Assembly (NCBI GenBank): GCA_963666835.2
Contig: CAXXGO010000006.1
Span: forward strand, 2,592,001 to 2,656,000
Length of the DNA: 64,000 bases
DNA from: Phycisphaerae bacterium
GTDB lineage: Bacteria > Planctomycetota > Phycisphaerae > UBA1845
Direction: 5' to 3'
The notes under the pieces are model-generated. The model was not told the DNA's origin. It was given only the letters and a program-made list of their open reading frames with translations, and searched no databases. Below are positions 4,188-36,954 of this stretch, piece by piece. The translations under genes and the position numbers were made by a program. Positions within the stretch are counted from its first letter, which is position 1. Every line of letters begins with the position of its first letter.

Positions 4188-4712
4188 AAGGGGGTGCCCC
4201 ACCGCGGTGCTTGTTGCGTTGGGAGGGCCGTACCGATTCGCCGCCGGGGTGGGTGGGGGACGGATGCATCGACATACGGGGTTTTCTGTCTACTGTGATG
4301 TCTTACAGGCCGAAGGACGGGGCACTATCGCTGCATAACGCAAAGACCATGGCAGGTCTCGTTCCTCGACCGTGCCCTACGGCCCGGGTGCCCCATTCAC
4401 CCCGGCGTCTGTTGCATCAGGATAGCCGCAACGATTCGCCGCCGGGGTGGGTGGGGGACGGATGGAGGTTTGAGACACGCTGGCATTCGGAGATCAGTCC
4501 CCCACCCTTCGGCCAATGAACAGTGTGTATACCGGGAATGCATCGATATACGGGGTTTTCGGTCTACTGTGATGTCGCACAGGCCGAAGGACGGGGCACT
4601 ATCGCTGCATCACGCAAAGACCATGGCAGGTCTCGTTCCTCGACCGTGCCCTACAGGCTGTGATGTCGCACAGGCCGAAGGACGGGGTACCCTCCGAGGG
4701 ATGGGCACCCTC
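4188..4712. repeat. Cluster of GGGTGCCCC-type REP-like palindromes with an internal duplication of about 118 bp
   Basis: 4263-4380 and 4538-4654 are near-identical; CGATTCGCCGCCGGGGTGGGTGGGGGACGGATG occurs twice; 4385-4463 resembles the reverse complement of 36785-36872. Confidence 0.85.
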
Positions 4713-27885: not shown

Positions 27886-27958
27886 TGGAGCCGAGCGGGC
27901 TCGAACCGCCGACCTCCTGGTTGCAAACCAGGCGCTCTCCCAGCTGAGCTACGGCCCC
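27886..27958 (-). tRNA. tRNA-Ala(TGC)
   Basis: GGGGCCGTAGCTCAGCTGGGAGAGCGCCTGGTTTGCAACCAGGAGGTCGGCGGTTCGAGCCCGCTCGGCTCCA; G3:U70 pair; CCA tail not encoded. Confidence 0.97.
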
Positions 27959-29935: not shown

Positions 29936-30207
29936 GGGTGCCCCATGTCCTTTCGTGTTTAGGATGTGTGGCCCATGTCCTCTTGTGTCTAGAGCGTGCT
30001 GCGATTCGTCGCAGATCGTGCAACGCCAAACACGTCGGACATGGGGGAGCCGATGACGAGCACGCGACATTGCAGCAGATCTCGTTCGTCGACCTGCATT
30101 ACACGGTGGGAAGTGTCCACATGATGGCATGCTGCTTTGAAAGGCGATTGTGATTCGCCGGTCACCAGGGCGATTCGTCCCCCCTTGCTGGGGAGGTTAG
30201 GCACCTG
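29936..30207. repeat. REP-like palindrome cluster at the left edge of the array
   Basis: GGGTGCCCCATGTCC..., GTGGCCCATGTCC...GGACATGGGG, and an inverted degenerate copy at about 30178-30207. Confidence 0.65.
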
Positions 30208-30221
30208 CGGTCGAAAGGGCG

Positions 30222-30650
30222 TCAGAGTGTCAAGACCGTTATCGCAGTGTGTCCGAGAATCAGGGCCCACAGGATCACCGTGAGACGCGCGCCAAACCGC
30301 TTCACTGATCGCTCGGCGCGTGCCTCAAGCGTACCTGCTGCTGCTGCCGCCAGAAGTAGCTGCAGCGGAAAGAGAAGAAACGGACCGGTCAGCCAGTTCA
30401 CTTCTACACGATCGACGGTACCGCGAATCTCGTCAACAAAGACGTACGCAATGAACCACGGGATCGTTGCCAAAAGGAGTATGCGGAAGAACCTCCGCAG
30501 AGGCCAACGCCGCCTGGCGTATACCGCTACCTCGCGCGAAGTAAACGCTTGTCCGCACTCCGGGCAGCGCGGTTCCACAAGTCCTCGTAAGTCGTAATCG
30601 CAGTTTGGGCAACGACCCTCAGTTTGCACGGCTGAGCAGACCTCTTTCAT
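30222..30650 (-). CDS. Zinc-ribbon membrane protein
   Basis: CPNCDYDLRGLVEPRCPECG followed by TM segments. Confidence 0.8.
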   Translation of the reverse strand: MKEVCSAVQTEGRCPNCDYDLRGLVEPRCPECGQAFTSREVAVYARRRWPLRRFFRILLLATIPWFIAYVFVDEIRGTVDRVEVNWLTGPFLLFPLQLLLAAAAAGTLEARAERSVKRFGARLTVILWALILGHTAITVLTL

Positions 30651-30819
30651 CAAGAAACCTCGATCTCCGTGGTCGTCGGCGCTTGTGTAGTTTACGCGTC
30701 AAGCATGGCCAGGCAACTGCGGACCATGCCACCAGTCAGGTTGCTCGTAAGATACGAAAGACCCCACCACATGATGCAATCATACTACCAGACAGTTCTG
30801 GACTCCACCATTCGCACGA

Positions 30820-30856
30820 GCGGAGCTCCATCCTTGCTACGAAGCACGTCGCACCA
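30820..30856. repeat. Degenerate REP-like copy
   Basis: CCATCCTTGCTACGAAGCACGTCGCACC resembles CCACCCTTGCTACGCAAAAGTGGGGCACC near 36897. Confidence 0.45.
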
Positions 30857-30894
30857 GTTCAACGGAGAAGTCTATCCTTGCCCGCGAGACTGTG

Positions 30895-31449
30895 TCAACC
30901 GACTCGTAGCAGACAGGAGAGAACCAGGTAGGGCAGCAAGACGCTGAGAGACGACACACAGAACAGCTTAATCAGGTAGGGACGCGTCGGCAATGACAGA
31001 CGAACCAGAGAAACCGCGTACCAGGTCGACAGCGCAACGCATGTCGCCGGTATGCTCAACACCGCAAGTAACGCCCACGTGTCCGGTGGATTTGCCGGAA
31101 TGCCAATGCATGCGGTAGGAAAGACGAGCGGCCCCATCAGGGCAAACACGCCGATATCCGGATATAGAGCAAAACAGATCAACGTCGGTCCGCAAAAGGC
31201 GAGAGCGTTGAGGACGAGTTGCACGACAGTGACTCGCCAGCGGTGGTTTCGCCAGTAGGTCGCCCAGCGGGCCGCGGGCTCATTAGACTTCGCCACCGGC
31301 GTGCCACATTCCGGGCACAATCCGTATAGACCCAGCGTTCGGAGATTGTACCCGCATTCCATGCATTGCAGATCGCGAACAATGGTCCGCCGTTTCGGAG
31401 TCTCAGGCGCGACATCAGTATTGTCCTTATCCGGCAGCATCCTTCGCAT
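30895..31449 (-). CDS. Zinc-ribbon membrane protein
   Basis: CMECGYNLRTLGLYGLCPECG followed by TM segments. Confidence 0.8.
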   Translation of the reverse strand: MRRMLPDKDNTDVAPETPKRRTIVRDLQCMECGYNLRTLGLYGLCPECGTPVAKSNEPAARWATYWRNHRWRVTVVQLVLNALAFCGPTLICFALYPDIGVFALMGPLVFPTACIGIPANPPDTWALLAVLSIPATCVALSTWYAVSLVRLSLPTRPYLIKLFCVSSLSVLLPYLVLSCLLRVG

Positions 31450-31487
31450 TTCTCCAAGGCGGTCCGAAAGGCAAGCACGGGCGCCCC

Positions 31488-31627
31488 ATCTCTTCAGGGC
31501 AGCGGGTGCCCCATCCTTCGCCCCCGGCGAAGGGTGGGGAATGGACCCGCGTTCTCTTCTGACAAGCTCCTGCAGCCGCCCAGTGTAGTTCTTTCGGACG
31601 GGTGGCCCATCTCTTTAGAGGTGGGGA
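31488..31627. repeat. REP module (three REP-like units plus conserved spacer)
   Basis: GGGCGCCCCATC; GGGTGCCCCATCCTTCGCCCCCGGCGAAGGGTGGGG; GGGTGGCCCATCTCTTTAGAGGTGGGG. Confidence 0.85.
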
Positions 31628-31652
31628 ACTCTCACGGTCGGTGGCAGTGCAT

Positions 31653-32066
31653 CTACGTCTTCTCTCGATTGCCCAACAGTACCGGATCGAACGGCGTGCC
31701 ACACTCGGGGCATCGAGGGGTAGGAAGCCCGCAAAGCGAGTAGCCACAAACCAGACAGGTAGGGCTCTCGCTCTCCTCACGATGCGAGCTTGGCACGGTG
31801 CCAACGAGCACCGCGCACACCGCGAGACACAGCACAAGCGCGGGCACCGTGAAGCCCAGTGACTGCACCAGCAGGTCCTCCCAATTGGACGGAAACTCGT
31901 ACGCGAGCTGCCCCACCCGACGTTCCCGGGTCCCGACCACGATCGCGCCCGGCGCGCCGACCACAACTACTGATAACACGAGGAGCACCTTATGTCGAAC
32001 CCGTCGAAGGAGGAAGCACAGATTCAACACGAGCAAGGCCGAGGCAATAGCGAAACACCAGATCAT
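31653..32066 (-). CDS. Membrane protein with C-terminal zinc ribbon
   Basis: Three TM segments, then CLVCGYSLCGLPTPRCPECG. Confidence 0.8.
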   Translation of the reverse strand: MIWCFAIASALLVLNLCFLLRRVRHKVLLVLSVVVVGAPGAIVVGTRERRVGQLAYEFPSNWEDLLVQSLGFTVPALVLCLAVCAVLVGTVPSSHREESESPTCLVCGYSLCGLPTPRCPECGTPFDPVLLGNREKT

Positions 32067-32091
32067 CGCGTTGACGTCCCCACTCCGGCAC

Positions 32092-32128
32092 GGGCGCCCC
32101 ATCCTTCGCCCCCGGCGAAGGGTGGGGG
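32092..32128 (+). repeat. REP hairpin, 5' half of the module interrupted by the intron
   Basis: GGGCGCCCCATCCTTCGCCCCCGGCGAAGGGTGGGGG. Confidence 0.9.
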
Positions 32129-34055
32129 GAAAGCGCCGGTAAGCCGGTGAGGAGTAGTGGATGAGAGAGCCATACGGTGAAGGAATAGCGAACCACACCG
32201 ACCCCGAGTCATACTGTGGTGTCCGCAAGGGCATGGCGGGAGCGTTGACAGGGGCACGTGCGGGCCGGCCATTGAGCCGTGAAAGCCTTTTACTCCGGAG
32301 TGCCGACGCCGTCCCCCAAGGCGGAAGGCAACACCGGAGGGCGTCGTTAACGCGAGACGCCTTTCGGACTCCGCGCGGTCTTAGAACCCGAGCACGCACG
32401 GAAACTCCTCACGCGGAACCCGGGAGATCCCGCGTTCGGCCTCGAACATGGCATCGAGGTCCGCAGTGTGAATCCATAGGAGCACGACACTGATGCACGG
32501 GCGCGGGAAGTCGGACAGGCCCATAGTACCGAAGAAGACTGCGAACAACGGTGATCCCCCGGCGGGGAGGTCGTCCGCGGAGCAGTTGGAGGAAAGGGGC
32601 CTGGCCAAGGGCAACTCGATTCGACACGACAGGCACCGTACGCAGAGCCGGGATCGTCTGCAAAGCGGGTTGGATCGGGTACGACAGGCAGCGGTAAAGG
32701 ATAAGGATTTACAGTTCACCACGCTTTGGCACCATGTCTATGATGTCGCTCGCCTCCGGGAGGCGTACTTGAGCCTCAAGCATGCTTCGGCACCGGGGAT
32801 GGACGGCATGACATGGGAGGCGTACGGCAGGGACCTAGAAGAACACCTCTTGGATCTGTCGGCACGTCTACAGCGCGGAGCGTACCGAGCGAGGCCGGTC
32901 AAGCGGGTCTACATTCCGAAACCCGATGGACGGCAGAGACCAATAGGGATTCCCGTGTTGGAAGACAAGATCGTCCAACGGGCGATGACCGATGTGCTCT
33001 CGGCTGTCTACGAGGCAGACTTCCTCGGGTTCTCCTACGGATTTCGACCAGGACGGGACGCCCATCAGGCGTTAAGTGCCCTGACTGTCGGCATCGAGAG
33101 GAAGAAGGTGAATTGGGTGCTGGATGCAGACATTCGTGGATTCTTCGATGCCATAGACCACGATTGGCTGATCAAGTTCGTCGAGCACCGGATCGCAGAC
33201 CAGCGTGTCGTGCGTCACGTGAAGAAGTGGCTGAACGCCGGCGTGCTGGAGGACGGGTGTCGAAGGGACACGGAGACGGGGACGCCGCAGGGGGGCAGTA
33301 TCAGCCCGCTATTGGCGAACATCTATCTCCATTACGCCTTCGACTTGTGGGCCCGCCAATGGCGACGGACGCAAGCTCACGGAGATGTGATTATCGTGAG
33401 ATATGCGGACGACTTCGTGGTGGGATTTCAACAGCGAGAGGATGCCGAGCGGTTTCGGGATGAGCTGACGGATCGCCTCCGGAAGTTCAAGCTGGAGCTA
33501 CATGCGGACAAGACTCGTCTGATTGAGTTCGGCCGTTTTGCGTCGACCAATCGCAAGCGAGAAGGCCGCGGCAAACCGGCGACCTTCGAGTTTCTGGGTT
33601 TTCGCCACATCTGTGGCAAGACCCGGCGTGGGAGGTTCACGGTACTACGGCAGACTGTCGCGAAACGACGGCGTGCGAAGCTCAAAGCGATTAAGCAAGA
33701 GCTTCGGCGACGTATGCATGCCCCCGTCCGAGAGGTGGGCGCGTATTTGCGGGCGGTGGTTCGCGGGTACTATCAGTATTATGCGGTACCGCGGAACTAC
33801 CCGGCCTTAACGGCATTTCGGGATGAGGTTGTCCGTCTTTGGCGCTGGACGCTCCGGCGTCGTAGCGAGAAGACTCGGATTACCTGGGCCCGCATGAACC
33901 GTTTGGCCAAGCAGTGGATACCTGCTCCCAAAATCCTACATCCTTACCCCGACCGACACCTGGCCGTTATGACCCAAGGCAGGAGCCCAGTGCGGTAGTC
34001 CCGCACGCTGGGATCTGTGGAGGGGGTCCCGGGTAACCGGGATTCCTACTCCGAC
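32129..34055 (+). mobile_element. Group II intron (IIB, resembling bacterial class E); no canonical GUGYG 5' end
   Basis: Domain V GAGCCCAGTGCGGTAGTCCCGCACGCTGGGATC and domain VI ending CCTACTCCGAC at 34055; the flanks rejoin into an intact repeat module; RT ORF inside. Confidence 0.9.
32493..33998 (+). CDS. ltrA: Group II intron reverse transcriptase/maturase, no endonuclease domain
   Basis: APGMDG, YIPKPDGRQRPIGIP, SYGFRPGR, DADIRGFFD, GTPQGGSISPLLANIYL, RYADD, FLGF and domain X. Confidence 0.95.
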   Translation: MHGRGKSDRPIVPKKTANNGDPPAGRSSAEQLEERGLAKGNSIRHDRHRTQSRDRLQSGLDRVRQAAVKDKDLQFTTLWHHVYDVARLREAYLSLKHASAPGMDGMTWEAYGRDLEEHLLDLSARLQRGAYRARPVKRVYIPKPDGRQRPIGIPVLEDKIVQRAMTDVLSAVYEADFLGFSYGFRPGRDAHQALSALTVGIERKKVNWVLDADIRGFFDAIDHDWLIKFVEHRIADQRVVRHVKKWLNAGVLEDGCRRDTETGTPQGGSISPLLANIYLHYAFDLWARQWRRTQAHGDVIIVRYADDFVVGFQQREDAERFRDELTDRLRKFKLELHADKTRLIEFGRFASTNRKREGRGKPATFEFLGFRHICGKTRRGRFTVLRQTVAKRRRAKLKAIKQELRRRMHAPVREVGAYLRAVVRGYYQYYAVPRNYPALTAFRDEVVRLWRWTLRRRSEKTRITWARMNRLAKQWIPAPKILHPYPDRHLAVMTQGRSPVR

Positions 34056-34185
34056 ACTGATCCGCATTCGTTTCTGACAACCTCCTGCAGCTACCGAGTG
34101 TAGTTATTCCGCCCCGGTTTGGTCAAGCAGGTCTCCGCACGCGCGATGAACCGGTGTAGATGGGGGCCTGATTCGCCGGTAAGCG
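34056..34185. repeat. 3' half of the interrupted module, carrying a promoter-like motif on the minus strand
   Basis: Aligns with 31540-31595, 34797-34895 and 36695-36790; minus strand TTGACC(34126-34121)-N18-TACACT(34102-34097). Confidence 0.8.
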
Positions 34186-34230
34186 AAGCGATCCGTCTCC
34201 CACGCTCGGTGCGCGAAGAAGTGAGGCACG

Positions 34231-34740
34231 CTACCAAGACAACCTGAAGACGAACGGGCGGAACGCCAACGATTCGAAGAATGACCACACGGCCAGAAGA
34301 AACACGATCCTGATCCGCCATCGCCAATCACTGCGCATTGACTCATAGCTAGCGAAAGTCAGTATTGCCAATGCTACGCAGATGCCAAGGCAGAGATTGC
34401 CGAAGCTGGTTGCCCCCAATCCTGGGCGCACATCGAGCACGCTGAGGAACAGCCAAACGGGGGCGAGAAGCACATCACGTGCGTGAATACGAAAACCACT
34501 GAGACCCACGAGAAGCAGTAGGGCGGGCAGGTAGAACGCGGAGGCATTGATCGGCACAATGAACAGGAGGCTCCGCCATCGCGGAGAGGCTGCCTCCGGC
34601 TCAGACGTAGAGTCGACGACGTCCGTGCCGCATTCCGGACAACGTCCCGTCAATCGAAGTGTGCGTAGATTGTACCCACAACCAACACACGAGACATCAT
34701 CGTCAACGCATTCTCTTTTTCGTTCGCCCGTATCGCCCAC
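34231..34740 (-). CDS. Zinc-ribbon membrane protein (start uncertain)
   Basis: CVGCGYNLRTLRLTGRCPECG followed by TM segments; paralog of 30895-31449. Confidence 0.78.
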   Translation of the reverse strand: MGDTGERKRECVDDDVSCVGCGYNLRTLRLTGRCPECGTDVVDSTSEPEAASPRWRSLLFIVPINASAFYLPALLLLVGLSGFRIHARDVLLAPVWLFLSVLDVRPGLGATSFGNLCLGICVALAILTFASYESMRSDWRWRIRIVFLLAVWSFFESLAFRPFVFRLSW

Positions 34741-34759
34741 CGCAGAAAACCCCACCAGC

Positions 34760-34968
34760 GGGTGCCCCGTCCTTCGCCCCCGGCGAAGGGTGGGGGATGG
34801 CCCCGCGCTGACTTCTCGACAAGCCTTCGCTGTCGCCTGTTGTAGTTCTTTCGCTCCGGTTTGGTCAAGCACGTCTCCGCATACGGGATGAACCGCTTGG
34901 GAAGGGGACTGCATTCTGCCCGAGGCGATCCGCCACCCCCCCCTTGCTGCGCAAGCATGGGGCGCCCA
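34760..34968. repeat. Complete module: REP, promoter-like spacer, inverted REP
   Basis: GGGTGCCCCGTCCTTCGCCCCCGGCGAAGGGTGGGGG ... TGTAGTTCTTTCGCTCCGGTTTGGTCAAG ... CCCCCCCTTGCTGCGCAAGCATGGGGCGCCC. Confidence 0.88.
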
Positions 34969-35046
34969 CGCGAATAGGCTCGGAGTTGGCTCCCTGCATC
35001 AACGGACTGCCAGGCGGTTCCGGGATTATCTGCCATCGTGGTGCAA

Positions 35047-35532
35047 TCAGGTAGACGGCGGAAACTCAAGTGGACAATGAGGCGGTTGTCCATCCACCGG
35101 AACATGCTTCTCCCAGGCCCCGTTGTCTTCTTCCTCCCAGTAGACGGCGCCGATGTCTGCACTCAGAAGCCACAGCCTACTATCAGTGTCCCAGTCGACG
35201 TTCCACGAGGATGTTCCGGCAGCTACCGACTCCACGTCCAAGACAACGGCACCTGTTTCGGCGCGACAGATCAAGAACCCGACCGGTCCCGTATCATCGT
35301 GCCTTGTTGAGCCTGTCCAGACAAAATGACGGCCGTTGGGCGCCAAGGGGACTTTCCGCGGTGATCTCCAACCGGCATCTGTGACGCCTCTATCCACTTT
35401 CTCAAGACGCGCCTGCGCGAGCTTATACAAAGCGCGGTTCCTGCTGCGCTGCCTCTCCGTACACGAATACACCTGTATGCCGATCACGGCCAGGCCGATG
35501 ATGTACGCGACACCTGAGACGATAGACCGCAT
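35047..35532 (-). CDS. Hypothetical protein with N-terminal membrane anchor
   Basis: 161 aa ORF with a hydrophobic N-terminus and WDTDSRLWLLSADIG. Confidence 0.65.
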   Translation of the reverse strand: MRSIVSGVAYIIGLAVIGIQVYSCTERQRSRNRALYKLAQARLEKVDRGVTDAGWRSPRKVPLAPNGRHFVWTGSTRHDDTGPVGFLICRAETGAVVLDVESVAAGTSSWNVDWDTDSRLWLLSADIGAVYWEEEDNGAWEKHVPVDGQPPHCPLEFPPST

Positions 35533-35709
35533 GATCCCAGAACCCCCTGTGTCTTCATGGTCGGTACGTCTCCACATGCCGGCGGCTGACGGGCTACTCA
35601 TCGAATCGAGTTCATCACTCGCACGGTCCTTCCGGGCTGGCGTTCCATCCGCCGCCCGCAGCGGAGAATGACGGACCCGGAGCCGAACACACGGTCCGAG
35701 TTCGCAATG

Positions 35710-35888
35710 AGCTTCGTCGACACGCCTTGTGGGCCGACGCATACTGTTGTACAGTTTCCTGCCGTCTTCGGCTGCACTTCCTTCACCCTGGTTTCGTCAA
35801 GTAAGTTCCCGAGAGCAGGATAAGCCGGTGTGGATGGTGGCCGGGTTTCGCCGGCTACCGTGTCGATCCGTCCCCCACCCTTGCTATA
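35710..35888. repeat. Degenerate module copy
   Basis: GGTTTCGTCAAG...CCGGTGTGGATGGTGGC...TACCGTGTCGATCCGTCCCCCACCCTTGCTA, shared with 36720-36910. Confidence 0.75.
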
Positions 35889-36525
35889 GCGAGATTCCCA
35901 AGTGCTCGCGCGATGGCGTGTCGTGCTCTTTGTGGTAACGGATCAGTGAGGGATCGCTCTCGGCAGCTTCAGCGTATTCAGCCGGGCGAACTTTCTTGCT
36001 GCGGATATAGTACTCCGGGTATCCCGGTCGTAATCTACCGTCCTCTTGCCATTCTCGAACAACACCGTGGAGTCGTCCGCGCTGCCAGAATCGCTCGGTA
36101 TAGACCTGCATTCCGTCCTCATTCCACCAGAGTTTGCACCCGTGATGGAGTCCATCGACAATATGCCTTTCCTCTGCGATTTTACCGTTCTCGTGCCACC
36201 AAATGTCCAGGCCAGTACCATTCGACATTTCGTACGTGCCGAGCAATGCGCCGTCGATACCGAACTGCCTCGCAACGCCGTGCTCCTTGCCGGTTTCGAA
36301 ATGCGTCTTAAACCTGAGAATACCATTGGAGAACCAACGTCGCAGTGATCCCTGGCGGATTCCGCCGGACATCATCACCTCTTCAATGACTGCGCCCGTC
36401 TCGTCCCTGATCCGCCTCGCGATTTCCTCACCTGCGACAAAGCACGCATGCACGGTGTCGCCGTACTCATCGAGAGTGAGCAGACGCTCGTCAACACCCT
36501 CAGGTATGTCGCTCGGGTAAGCCAT
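35884..36525 (-). CDS. MORN-variant repeat protein (YwqK antitoxin-like)
   Basis: Repeated G..HG...W.ENG units. Confidence 0.75.
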   Translation of the reverse strand: MAYPSDIPEGVDERLLTLDEYGDTVHACFVAGEEIARRIRDETGAVIEEVMMSGGIRQGSLRRWFSNGILRFKTHFETGKEHGVARQFGIDGALLGTYEMSNGTGLDIWWHENGKIAEERHIVDGLHHGCKLWWNEDGMQVYTERFWQRGRLHGVVREWQEDGRLRPGYPEYYIRSKKVRPAEYAEAAESDPSLIRYHKEHDTPSREHLGISL

Positions 36526-36559
36526 TCTTTGCCGCGATTCTCCGACGTTGGCCAAGCTG

Positions 36560-36927
36560 CGGGTGCCCCGTCCTTCGCCCCTGGCGAAGGGTGGGGAATG
36601 GATCCGGAACCTGCTTCAGTCAGCGAATGCCAAACGTGGTCCGCCCGTACGTTGAGCAATGCGACGTTCACAGCGTGCCGATCTTGTACTGTTCCTGGTT
36701 GTAGTTGCTTCGGCCGGGTTTGGTCAAGTGAGTTTCCGCAAGCGGGATCAACCGGTGTAGATGGTGGCTGAAGTCCGCCCGTTACCGTGTCGATCCGTCC
36801 CCCACCCATTCCGGCGGGGAGTCGGCATGGCTACGGCAGCTCGGCAAACGCCGGAATGAATGGGGTACCCGCCTGGTTACCGTGTCGATCCGTCCCCCAC
36901 CCTTGCTACGCAAAAGTGGGGCACCCT
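36560..36927. repeat. Long module: REP, promoter-like spacer, two inverted REPs
   Basis: REP at 36560-36597; minus strand TTGACC(36727-36722)-N18-TACAAC; GTTACCGTGTCGATCCGTCCCCCACCC occurs twice. Confidence 0.88.
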
Positions 36928-36954
36928 CCTGTGGGTTGCCGAATTGGTTACCGC

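What the first reader, a model, noticed from the sequence alone, without database searches (positions are those of the whole stretch)
32092..34185. Group II intron that appears to target a REP hairpin
Seen: removing 32129-34055 rejoins ...GAAGGGTGGGGG to ACTGATCCGCATTCGTTTCTGACAACC..., which aligns with uninterrupted modules at 31503-31595 and 34760-34895. Inside domain I, a hairpin loop GCC-GTCCCCCAA-GGC presents CCCCCA (32313-32318), the exact complement of TGGGGG at -6..-1 (32123-32128). CCTTT (32286-32290) can pair with GAAGG at -12..-8 (32117-32121). Established: this is the usual IBS1/IBS2 geometry, and IIC introns home to terminators and attC hairpins. Inference: a IIB/class E-like intron uses a multicopy REP arm as a safe-haven target. 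Perfect unoccupied GAAGGGTGGGGG sites exist at 34785-34796 (+) and 4499-4510 (-).
Basis: partly seen in the sequence, partly recalled or inferred. Interest (0 to 1): 0.88.

Follow-up and report, generated by a model that had tools for sequence, protein, structure and literature searches.

The report
Group II intron homing into palindromic repeats
This is a recently active, self-splicing mobile intron, present in twelve near-identical copies, that always inserts at one short sequence carried by repeated palindromic DNA between genes; it is a clear example of a known way of life, not a new mechanism.

Summary
Window 32129-34055 (+) is a complete 1927-nt group II intron: Rfam RF02005 at 169 bits and an RT/maturase scoring 371 bits on TIGR04416. 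Its boundaries are fixed exactly by unoccupied sites. The genome holds 12 near-identical copies with open ORFs. All 12 follow GGGTGGGGG and precede A[CT][GT]GA.

This motif sits in interspersed palindromic repeats: 69 such sites, 57 empty. EBS2 lies in the proposed bulge. EBS3 is U32381, which is new here. RNA features and 58% protein identity to S. meliloti S.me.I4 place the intron in bacterial class E; class F was not excluded.

Three corrections apply:
- Ten of the 12 copies sit in a longer repeat family than the window's module, where the proposed IBS2 pairing has a mismatch.
- No link to a REP-associated transposase (RAYT) was found.
- Nothing shows that the hairpin itself is recognised; the intron-binding sites lie inside the stem.

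Only one DNA strand is occupied (11 of 34 sites against 0 of 29). This fits insertion at replication forks, as known for endonuclease-less introns.

Verdict: a new member of a known kind, of moderate interest.

The parts
32097..32127 (+). Palindromic repeat hairpin that forms the end of the 5' exon. Arms are 32097-32110 and 32114-32127 (14 bp with one T.G pair), with a CCC loop. G32128 (-1) is unpaired.
   Evidence: Sequence; ssDNA fold at -18 kcal/mol; aligns with the uninterrupted modules.
32117..32122 (+). IBS2 (GAAGG at -12..-8, or GAAGGG with G.U pairs). Perfect here; 10 of the 12 copies carry [AG][AG]TGG instead.
32123..32128 (+). IBS1, TGGGGG (-6..-1).
   Evidence: Identical in 12 of 12 copies; complementary to EBS1; covariation in relatives.
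32129..34055 (+). Complete group II intron, 1927 nt. It starts GAAAGCG and ends CUCCGAC.
   Evidence: Boundaries are fixed by unoccupied sites that read GGGTGGGGG|ACGGAT.
32242..32249 (+). Alpha (GCGUUGAC). It can form 8 bp with alpha' at 32346-32353.
   Evidence: Inspection of the sequence against Rfam's structure line. Inferred, not tested by covariation.
32286..32291 (+). EBS2 (CCUUUU), inside the 14-nt bulge 32282-32295 of domain I d.
   Evidence: The bulge is unpaired in Rfam's structure and in the MFE fold. Bulge-to-exon complementarity in 27 introns is -5.04 against -3.66 kcal/mol, permutation p = 0.0003.
32313..32318 (+). EBS1 (CCCCCA), in the 9-nt loop GUCCCCCAA of a domain I d hairpin.
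32346..32353 (+). Alpha' (GUUAACGC), in the terminal loop of a domain I d3 hairpin. This placement is typical of IIE/IIF.
   Evidence: structure line; feature described in PMC3753933, section 4.
32381..32381 (+). EBS3 (U). It is unpaired at the base of domain I d and pairs with A34056.
   Evidence: The column is Watson-Crick complementary to +1 of the 3' exon in 19 of 21 introns. The next best column reaches 14 of 20.
32493..33998 (+). Intron-encoded RT/maturase, 501 aa as the longest ORF. It has no endonuclease domain, and its end overlaps domain V.
   Evidence: The ORF is open in 12 of 12 copies.
33983..34015 (+). Domain V, 33 nt: AGC triad, AC bulge and a 5-nt loop UAGUC.
   Evidence: Inspection; conserved in relatives; the 5-nt loop is an IIE/IIF trait per PMC3753933.
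34017..34055 (+). Domain VI, with a bulged A at 34048, 7 nt before the 3' end.
   Evidence: Inspection; conserved in relatives. Branching itself was not tested.
34056..34170 (+). 3' exon, the rest of the interrupted repeat module. IBS3 is A34056.
34760..34895 (+). Uninterrupted copy of the same module, with a perfect empty target (34785-34796 | 34797).
31503..31595 (+). Uninterrupted copy of the module. Its target differs by one base (GAAGGGTGGGGA).
4499..4510 (-). Perfect empty target on the opposite strand.

Best explanation
The element is an active, endonuclease-less group II intron of the bacterial class E (IIE, IIB-like) lineage. It spreads within its genome by retrohoming.

Mechanism. 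The excised intron RNA, bound to its RT/maturase, finds DNA by base pairing. EBS1 (CCCCCA) pairs with TGGGGG at -6..-1. EBS2 (CCUUU[U]) pairs with the bases at about -12..-7. EBS3 (U32381) pairs with A at +1. The RNA then reverse-splices between G(-1) and A(+1) and is copied into DNA.

Target. The roughly 15-nt target GG[..]GGGTGGGGG|AYKGA is part of interspersed palindromic repeat families of this genome. The intron therefore has dozens of intergenic, presumably harmless homing sites.

Strand rule. Only sites on one strand are filled. This is as expected if insertion goes into the single-stranded lagging-strand template at replication forks and is primed by nascent DNA, as shown for RmInt1.

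Shown here: the anatomy, the boundaries, the pairings (by covariation), the copy number and near-identity of the copies, the target motif, and the strand asymmetry.

Inferred: splicing and mobility activity, the replication-fork mechanism, and the 'safe haven' benefit.
For: Intron identity.

Copies:
- There are 12 full copies. Five are identical and the rest differ by 1-2 substitutions or one 1-nt indel. ORFs are open in 12 of 12.
- 12 of 12 5' exons end GGGTGGGGG. The 3' exons read ACGGA in 9, ACTGA in 2 and ATGGA in 1.

Target specificity:
- The genome has 888 TGGGGGA sites, yet all 12 copies lie among the 69 sites with the extended motif.
- The flanking repeats are diverged and of at least two families while the introns are near-identical. 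So these are independent insertions.

Pairings:
- EBS1: 0 of 20,000 permutations reach the observed loop-exon complementarity, n = 32.
- EBS2: p = 0.0003, n = 27.
- EBS3: 19 of 21.
- On the occupied strand, sites with a purine at -12 (pairable with U32290) are filled in 11 of 26, and those with a pyrimidine in 0 of 8. Fisher p = 0.034, a post-hoc test.

Strand:
- On contig C6, 10 of 27 '+' sites are filled against 0 of 28 '-' sites, p = 2.9e-4.
- On C6 and C1 together, 11 of 34 against 0 of 29, p = 5.2e-4.
- In composite repeats that carry the motif on both strands, only the '+' one is filled, whichever family it belongs to.
- GC skew of C6 is positive from 1.0 to 2.67 Mb.

Class:
- The DV loop is 5 nt, alpha' sits in a terminal loop, and EBS2 sits in a bulge (against PMC3753933).
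- RF02005 also hits the disrupted intron on pRmeGR4b, whose IEP is 58% identical to this one. The second intron on that plasmid, of RNA type RF01999, is 37% identical. PMC5894124 names a disrupted class E intron on that plasmid.
Against: - No experiment or read-level data here shows splicing or movement. The public runs were available only as contigs that break at the repeat, and they gave no locus-specific empty allele.
- GC skew is flat (within about 0.015) over 0-1 Mb of C6, where 8 of the 12 copies lie. The link between strand bias and replication direction there rests on extrapolation.
- One copy, on C7, is on the '-' strand of a 104-kb contig that has no usable skew.
- EBS2 pairing with the majority sites has a central U.U mismatch. 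The window's own EBS2-exon score ranks only 12th of 27.
- The 5' end GAAAGCG departs from the GUGYG consensus.
- Rfam's domain V/VI model RF00029 did not reach its gathering score on this intron.
- Class F was not excluded by a labelled tree.
Confidence: 0.85

Rival explanations
1. Recognition depends on structure. As with IIC introns, the RNP (or its protein) reads the extruded repeat hairpin and inserts just past its 3' arm. Base pairing only fine-tunes the site.
For: - In 11 of 12 sites the target arm can pair with an upstream arm, and the insertion point lies 1 nt beyond the stem.
- A second, ORF-less intron lineage of the same genome also sits in the 3' part of another palindromic repeat.
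- One relative (G014, L023) follows a 6-bp hairpin.
- IIC precedent: PMC4424553 and PMC1702495, listing and passages.
Against: - IBS1 and IBS2 lie inside the stem, so the hairpin competes with EBS pairing instead of flanking it.
- The copy at C6:1555347 has no upstream partner arm. In 3 of 12 rejoined sites the arm prefers a downstream partner.
- The intron has a full 6-bp EBS1 plus an EBS2, unlike IIC.
- Most relatives sit at sites with no evident hairpin but with matching IBS1.
- Sequence and structure are confounded here, because every site is a repeat.
Confidence: 0.1
2. The intron did not choose the repeats. Intron and flanking repeat were amplified together as one composite mobile unit, or by segmental duplication.
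For: - All copies share the same immediate flanks.
- Two pairs of copies share a private substitution each.
- Eight copies cluster within 0.32-0.80 Mb of C6.
Against: - Flanks diverge within tens of bases and belong to at least two repeat families, while the introns are 99.9-100% identical.
- 57 empty sites of the same families exist, and the intron boundaries fall exactly at the point predicted by EBS1 and EBS3.
- Repeat family A has 72 members on both strands.
Confidence: 0.03

Closest known systems
Bacterial class E (IIE) group II introns, e.g. S.me.I4 of Sinorhizobium meliloti GR4 pRmeGR4b and Cl.be.I2 (Nagy et al. 2013, PMC3753933)
   Same: - Same Rfam 5' RNA model: RF02005 at 169 bits here and 145 bits on pRmeGR4b.
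- 5-nt domain V loop, alpha' in a terminal loop, and EBS2 in a domain I d bulge.
- The IEP lacks an endonuclease domain and is 58% identical over aa 128-445.
   Different: - The 5' end is GAAAGCG (7 nt) instead of GUGYG, a variant shared by a clade of relatives.
- There are 12 copies.
- The homing site lies in interspersed palindromic repeats.
- Class F, whose RNA is similar, was not excluded by a tree.
RmInt1 and RmInt2 (class D) of S. meliloti, which home into the multicopy ISRm2011-2 and into both inverted repeats of ISRm17 (PMC5894124, passages read)
   Same: - Endonuclease-less IEP.
- The target is defined by EBS1, EBS2 and EBS3.
- The homing site is a multicopy element.
- Bias to one strand, the lagging-strand template.
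- A target present in both orientations, so that one copy is always on the favoured strand.
   Different: - Different class: 37% identity to the RF01999-type intron on pRmeGR4b.
- The target here is a non-coding palindromic repeat of about 30-120 nt, not an insertion sequence.
Group IIC introns, which insert after terminator or attC stem-loops (PMC4424553, PMC1702495, PMC7923331)
   Same: Insertion lies right after the 3' arm of a DNA stem-loop in 11 of 12 copies. The IEP has no endonuclease domain.
   Different: IIC introns have a 3-4-bp EBS1, no EBS2, and an IBS1 that lies downstream of the stem. Here EBS1 is 6 bp, EBS2 exists, and both IBS lie inside the stem. The RNA and IEP class also differ.
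REP sequences as insertion targets of mobile elements (Tobes and Pareja 2006, PMC1525189)
   Same: Interspersed extragenic palindromes serve as landing sites. The table there lists the Pseudomonas putida KT2440 group II intron as REP-associated in 2 of 9 copies.
   Different: Here 12 of 12 copies are in repeats, at one exact nucleotide, and the pairing rules are worked out. The target families carry no GTAG tag, and no RAYT link was found.

Membership tests
Group II intron (ribozyme plus RT retroelement) | Domain I-IV RNA structure | tested here: met
   RF02005 scores 169.4 bits against a gathering score of 49, over the full model 1-225. The MFE fold reproduces the helices, z = -3.97.
Group II intron (ribozyme plus RT retroelement) | Domain V with catalytic triad and bulge; domain VI with a bulged A near the 3' end | tested here: inconclusive
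   By inspection, 33983-34015 has the AGC triad and an AC bulge, and A34048 is bulged 7 nt from the end. Both are conserved in relatives. Rfam RF00029 did not reach its gathering score on this intron, although it did on the RF01999-type intron of pRmeGR4b.
Group II intron (ribozyme plus RT retroelement) | Boundary consensus 5' GUGYG ... AY 3' | tested here: not met
   The 5' end is GAAAGCG, fixed by empty sites. The 3' end AC fits. Relatives carry GUGCG, GAGCG or 7-nt forms. This is a deviation at the 5' terminus, not an absence of the intron.
Group II intron (ribozyme plus RT retroelement) | Intron-encoded RT/maturase in domain IV | tested here: met
   TIGR04416 scores 370.6 bits against a cut-off of 300, over aa 87-456. 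RVT_1 has E 1.6e-40. GIIM is only weak, 14.3 bits against 23.
Group II intron (ribozyme plus RT retroelement) | EBS1-IBS1 pairing at the 5' splice site | tested here: met
   6 of 6 bp here. Covariation in 32 introns; 0 of 20,000 permutations reach the observed value.
Bacterial class E (IIE) | RNA traits named for IIE/IIF: 5-nt DV loop, alpha' in the terminal loop of a DId3 hairpin, extra bulge in DId3 | tested here: met
   Traits are taken from PMC3753933, section 4.
Bacterial class E (IIE) | IEP without a DNA-binding/endonuclease domain | tested here: met
   No HNH or other C-terminal domain appears in Pfam or NCBIfam. The protein ends about 45 aa after the maturase match.
Bacterial class E (IIE) | IEP falls inside the class E clade in an ORF phylogeny | tested here: inconclusive
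   No labelled tree was built. Proxy: 58% identity to the IEP of the disrupted RF02005-type intron on pRmeGR4b, the plasmid on which PMC5894124 places class E S.me.I4, against 37% to the RF01999-type intron there. No class F reference was available.
Group IIC (class C) stem-loop-targeting introns | Short EBS1 (3-4 bp) and no EBS2 | tested here: not met
   EBS1 is 6 bp, and an EBS2 is supported by covariation.
Group IIC (class C) stem-loop-targeting introns | Insertion just downstream of a DNA stem-loop | tested here: inconclusive
   The geometry holds in 11 of 12 copies. The IBS lie within the stem, and one copy lacks the upstream arm.
REP / REPIN (RAYT-associated extragenic palindromes) | Short imperfect palindromes, interspersed at high copy between genes | tested here: met
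   Family A has 72 nhmmer hits, 57 near full length, about 120 nt each. GGCGAAGGGTGGGG occurs 30 times. Stems are 14-17 bp. Family A is longer than classical 20-40-nt REPs.
REP / REPIN (RAYT-associated extragenic palindromes) | Association with a RAYT (Y1 transposase flanked by the repeats), or a GTAG/CGTC tag | tested here: not met
   There are 9 Y1_Tnp matches in the genome, but none of the 8 motifs of the target and GTAG repeats that I searched lies within 1.5 kb of the 4 best. The other 5 loci were not examined. The target families show no GTAG head in their consensus. A separate GTAG-type REP exists in the genome.

The most novel reading that the evidence does not exclude
A IIB-like class E intron may have converged on the IIC way of life. 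On this reading it exploits hairpins that palindromic repeats extrude on the lagging-strand template, where they offer exposed or stalled single-stranded DNA. The structure would then contribute to site choice, not only the 15-nt sequence. Two unrelated repeat families of one genome have each acquired their own intron lineage, which would make palindromic repeats a general niche for endonuclease-less introns.
Probability: 0.12. Interest if true: 0.75.

Novelty: new member of a known kind. Interest (0 to 1): 0.5.

Why it matters
This is an unusually clean natural record of how an endonuclease-less group II intron chooses its sites. Twelve fresh insertions stand beside 57 empty sites in one genome. 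The record shows an exact nucleotide rule, an all-or-none strand rule, and a hint that one EBS2 position (-12) decides occupancy.

Nagy et al. (PMC3753933) found EBS2 dispensable for splicing in IIE/IIF introns and proposed that it serves retrohoming. The occupancy pattern here is the kind of in-genome evidence that could test that idea.

The case also extends the list of 'safe-haven' targets, which already includes insertion sequences, terminators, attC sites and other introns, to non-coding palindromic repeats. In the papers I could search, only a 2-of-9 association in P. putida was on record. The short programmable target and compact RNA make this lineage a candidate for gene-targeting tools.

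Tried and rejected
- Public sequencing runs. Sixteen runs were listed and 4 were laid. All are Logan contigs that break at the intron-repeat junction. Intron contigs have about 7-10 times the depth of the flank contigs, which is consistent with many copies. No contig bridges this locus without the intron. The 'skips 1970' joint ends at 34099, not 34056, and comes from other repeat copies. So there is no evidence on polymorphism or expression.
- RAYT link. The genome has 9 Y1_Tnp matches. The 4 best loci, each with 1.5 kb of flank, hold none of the 8 motifs of the target and GTAG repeats that I searched. The other 5 were not examined.
- Replication direction from coding-strand bias. The result was uninformative: the '+' fraction ranges 0.35-0.71 with no clear pattern.
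- delta-delta' (IIA-type) reading of the U just 5' of EBS1. Rejected. That U is nearly invariant, while +1 varies and covaries with 32381 instead.
- Alternative 5' boundary (intron starting AAGCG, exon ending GGGGGA, which would also fit UCCCCC). Rejected. Empty sites have five G's followed by ACGGA.
- ORF-less relatives in genome G013 (L024, L033). Their exons match EBS1 in only 4-5 of 6 positions. They were kept in the EBS1 test and dropped from the EBS2 test.
- Literature. I found no paper describing a group II intron that homes specifically into REP-like repeats. PMC3733652 has 0 occurrences of 'intron'. PMC4853749 reports introns and palindromic repeats side by side, but no homing rule.
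- Rfam at gathering threshold found no known RNA family for the repeats in the window.
- Bioinformatic class assignment from supplements. I did not open the supplementary tables or alignment of PMC3552965; they may bear on E versus F.
Full report
WHAT IS THERE

Window 32129-34055 (+) is a complete group II intron of 1927 nt. Rfam's covariance model RF02005 (group-II-D1D4-6) matches 32164-32388 over its full length at 169.4 bits, E 3.4e-49. The only other gathering-level match in the window is a tRNA.

The longest ORF in the intron (32493-33998, 501 aa) is a group II RT/maturase. It matches Pfam RVT_1 at E 1.6e-40 over aa 141-371, and NCBIfam TIGR04416 at 370.6 bits against a cut-off of 300 over aa 87-456. 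The maturase model GIIM matches only weakly (14.3 bits against 23), and there is no endonuclease domain. Among solved structures it is about equally distant from IIC, IIB and IIA proteins, with E 1e-40 to 1e-43.

By inspection, domain V is 33983-34015, with an AGC triad, an AC bulge and a five-base loop UAGUC. Domain VI carries a bulged A at 34048, 7 nt from the 3' end. Both are conserved in relatives. Rfam's domain V/VI model RF00029 did not reach its threshold here.

BOUNDARIES AND COPIES

The own genome (7 contigs, 6.02 Mb) gives 19 matches to the intron. Twelve are full-length (query 1-1927). The rest are a 408-nt 3' fragment at 96% identity and shorter or more distant pieces.

Five of the 12 copies are identical. 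Six differ by 1-2 substitutions and one is 1 nt longer. The ORF is open in 12 of 12.

All 12 5' exons end GGGTGGGGG. The 3' exons begin ACGGA (9 copies), ACTGA (2) or ATGGA (1). The genome has 139 GGGTGGGGG sites, and 12 of them are followed by the intron. Unoccupied members of the same repeats read GGGTGGGGG|ACGGAT. This fixes the inserted segment as GAAAGCG...CUCCGAC, and no other register fits.

The rejoined exons of the window copy align with the uninterrupted modules at about 31503-31595 and 34760-34895.

EXON-BINDING SITES

Both Rfam's consensus structure and an independent minimum-free-energy fold of 32129-32425 (-133.6 kcal/mol, z = -3.97) show three features:
- CCCCCA (32313-32318) lies in a 9-nt hairpin loop.
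- A 14-nt bulge at 32282-32295 holds CCUUUU.
- A neighbouring hairpin has a loop, GUUAACGC, that can form 8 bp with GCGUUGAC at 32242-32249 (alpha-alpha').

To test these assignments I collected relatives. Twelve of 40 other genomes of the same family or order hold matches, the best being a full-length copy at 69% DNA identity. Another 54 loci came from named genomes of many phyla, at 31-71% protein identity. From these I extracted 40 distinct 5' segments, window included.

EBS1. In most relatives the loop aligned with EBS1 is the exact complement of the six bases before the intron. Examples are AGGAGA/TCTCCT, CAGGCA/TGCCTG, CAGGTC/GACCTG, ACGGAG/CTCCGT and UAACCG/CGGTTA. I then ran a boundary-free test on 32 of the 40 segments. 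Eight were dropped for a truncated exon or a missing loop region. Matched loop-exon duplex energy averaged -9.16 kcal/mol against -4.90 for mismatched pairs, and 0 of 20,000 permutations reached the observed value. Several sequences are kin that share a target, so ranks are not independent.

EBS2. I used 27 introns whose boundary I could set. Thirteen of the 40 were dropped, and the boundary was set with the help of EBS1. The bulge pairs better with its own exon at -20..-7 than with others: -5.04 against -3.66 kcal/mol, p = 0.0003. One boundary (L074) was set 2 nt off. The pairing bases sit at bulge positions 5-10, the register of CCUUUU here. The window intron's own score ranks only 12th of 27.

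EBS3. Among 22 introns with both ends, +1 of the 3' exon is C in 12, A in 5, T in 4 and G in 1. One column, U32381, is its Watson-Crick complement in 19 of 21. This U is unpaired at the base of domain I d. The next best column reaches 14 of 20. This is the IIB position of EBS3.

THE 5' END

GAAAGCG is a 7-nt variant of the usual GUGYG. Relatives carry GUGCG, GAGCG or 7-nt forms such as GAAAGCG, GAUAGCG, GGAUGCG and AGAUGCG. In each case the boundary agrees with EBS1.

CLASS

Nagy et al. 2013 (PMC3753933; sections 4, 6, 11 and 15 read) name three traits as marks of IIE/IIF introns: alpha' at the tip of a DId3 stem-loop, an extra DId3 bulge, and a 5-nt domain V loop. All three are present here.

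To anchor the ORF class I used S. meliloti GR4 plasmid pRmeGR4b. Toro et al. 2018 (PMC5894124, passages read) place 'a disrupted class E intron (S.me I4)' on it. On that record:
- RF02005 hits once (145.4 bits), directly upstream of a frameshifted, truncated RT that is 58% identical to this IEP over aa 128-445.
- The plasmid's other intron is of RNA type RF01999, with an intact ORF that is 37% identical.

I therefore file the intron as class E-type. Two caveats apply. My equation of the disrupted element with S.me.I4 is an inference. No class F reference or labelled tree was available, and the F and E RNAs are described as similar (PMC3552965, passages).

THE TARGET

The motif GGGTGGGGG followed by A[CT][GT]G[AG] occurs 69 times in the genome, 12 occupied and 57 empty.

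Ten of the 12 copies lie in family A. This is a roughly 120-nt palindromic element with the consensus GGGTGCCCCATCCATTCCGGCG ... GCCGGAATGGGTGGGGG|ACGGAT. It gives 72 nhmmer hits, 57 of them near full length. The window copy and C6:1555347 lie in GGCGAAGGGTGGGGG|ACTGAT contexts.

In composite units the motif occurs on both strands, facing inward. The target arm forms 14-17-bp hairpins as single-stranded DNA. In 11 of 12 sites it can pair with an upstream arm, leaving -1 unpaired. At C6:1555347 it cannot. In 3 of 12 rejoined sites it prefers a downstream partner.

The 19-nt pattern occurs 32 times in this genome. It occurs once each in 2 of the 40 relatives searched and not at all in the other 38. 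The reversed control gave 0 everywhere.

The genome has 9 Y1-transposase matches. The flanks (1.5 kb each side) of the 4 best hold none of the 8 motifs of the target and GTAG repeats that I searched. A RAYT link is therefore not shown.

HOW SPECIFIC IS INSERTION

There are 888 TGGGGGA sites in the genome, yet all 12 insertions are among the 69 extended sites. IBS1 plus IBS3 are therefore not enough.

On the occupied strand of contigs C6 and C1, sites with a purine at -12 are filled in 11 of 26. Sites with a pyrimidine there are filled in 0 of 8, and these include 0 of 6 CAT sites. Fisher p = 0.034; the test is post hoc. This fits pairing of U32290 with -12.

STRAND RULE

On C6, 10 of 27 '+' sites are occupied against 0 of 28 '-' sites (p = 2.9e-4). 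On C6 and C1 together it is 11 of 34 against 0 of 29 (p = 5.2e-4). The twelfth copy is on the '-' strand of the 104-kb contig C7.

GC skew of C6 is positive from 1.0 to 2.67 Mb but flat from 0 to 1 Mb, where 8 copies lie. Coding-strand bias was uninformative. For endonuclease-less introns a bias to the lagging-strand template is established for RmInt1 (PMC5894124; PMC4424553). The observed rule fits that mechanism, but the replication direction is only partly shown here.

MECHANISM AND RIVALS

The best reading is ordinary EBS-guided retrohoming of an active class E intron whose roughly 15-nt site happens to be, or has evolved to be, part of a multicopy palindromic repeat.

A structure-recognition reading in the IIC manner is not excluded. 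It is disfavoured because the IBS lie inside the stem, because one site lacks the upstream arm, and because relatives follow their own EBS1 at unrelated sequences that mostly have no hairpin.

Co-amplification of intron and repeat is contradicted by near-identical introns sitting in diverged flanks of different families.

COMPARISON WITH THE LITERATURE

- Tobes and Pareja 2006 (PMC1525189, table passage) list the P. putida KT2440 group II intron as REP-associated in 2 of 9 copies.
- Sonbol and Siam 2021 (PMC7923331, abstract and passages) report IIB introns beside attC sites. They state that no role of upstream structure had been reported for IIB introns.
- RmInt2 uses both inverted repeats of ISRm17 (PMC5894124).
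- Five searches of the held library found no description of a group II intron homing specifically into REP-like repeats. Subscription papers are not covered.

VERDICT

This is a new member of a known kind: a class E intron with standard recognition logic. Its notable points are its target niche, its clean strand asymmetry and its 7-nt 5' end.

Noticed in passing
G000:C6:259364-260033 (locus L014); fragments at C6:234347-234486 and C1:352764-352856 (L017): A second, related intron lineage in the same genome, about 70% identical in the 5' 300 nt. It is ORF-less (670 nt, with a remnant of the IEP N-terminus). It is inserted after ...GTAGAGCACGGTCGAGGCACGAGACCTG|CCGCAA, that is, inside a different, GTAG-headed repeat. 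Its EBS1, CAGGUC, matches GACCTG.
   Followed up: partly
Whole genome G000; e.g. flanks listed: The GTAG-headed repeat is very abundant: GTAG[AG]GCACGGTCGAGG occurs 390 times and GGCACGAGACCTG 273 times. It is often adjacent to family A units, forming mosaic clusters.
   Followed up: partly
Window 32129-32135 and relatives: A clade of related introns shares a 7-nt 5' terminus (GAAAGCG, GAUAGCG, GGAUGCG, AGAUGCG) in place of the 5-nt GUGYG or GAGCG. I did not examine how epsilon-epsilon' and the first-step geometry accommodate two extra bases.
   Followed up: no
G000:C7:69129-69536 (-), locus L013; C7:94469-94516 (L015): Two 5'-truncated 3' fragments of the intron, 408 nt at 96% identity and 48 nt. 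The first lies outside the target repeat, with the 3' exon ACCCGCTCG. They look like aborted or ectopic insertions.
   Followed up: no
Window 33863: The window copy has a private T at intron position 1735. The other copies, and the multicopy contigs of all four laid runs, have C.
   Followed up: yes
Genome G013 loci L024/L041 and L033; G023 L026; G032 L028: ORF-less derivatives of this intron lineage, with the 5' 300-400 nt joined to the 3' 90-200 nt, recur in several related genomes. In G013 both copies follow ...GGAGG, a Shine-Dalgarno-like sequence, with imperfect EBS1 matches.
   Followed up: partly
Loci L049 and L052 (named Acidimicrobiaceae MAG): Each locus holds two intron 5' ends about 2.8 kb apart. 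This suggests tandem or nested copies of two related introns with different EBS1 (CCCAGU and UGACAG).
   Followed up: no
Window 27886-27958 (-): A tRNA gene at 66.7 bits. It is unrelated to the finding.
   Followed up: no
Window 29968-36954: The intron lies antisense to a run of small '-' strand ORFs whose intergenic gaps each carry the hairpin module.
   Followed up: partly
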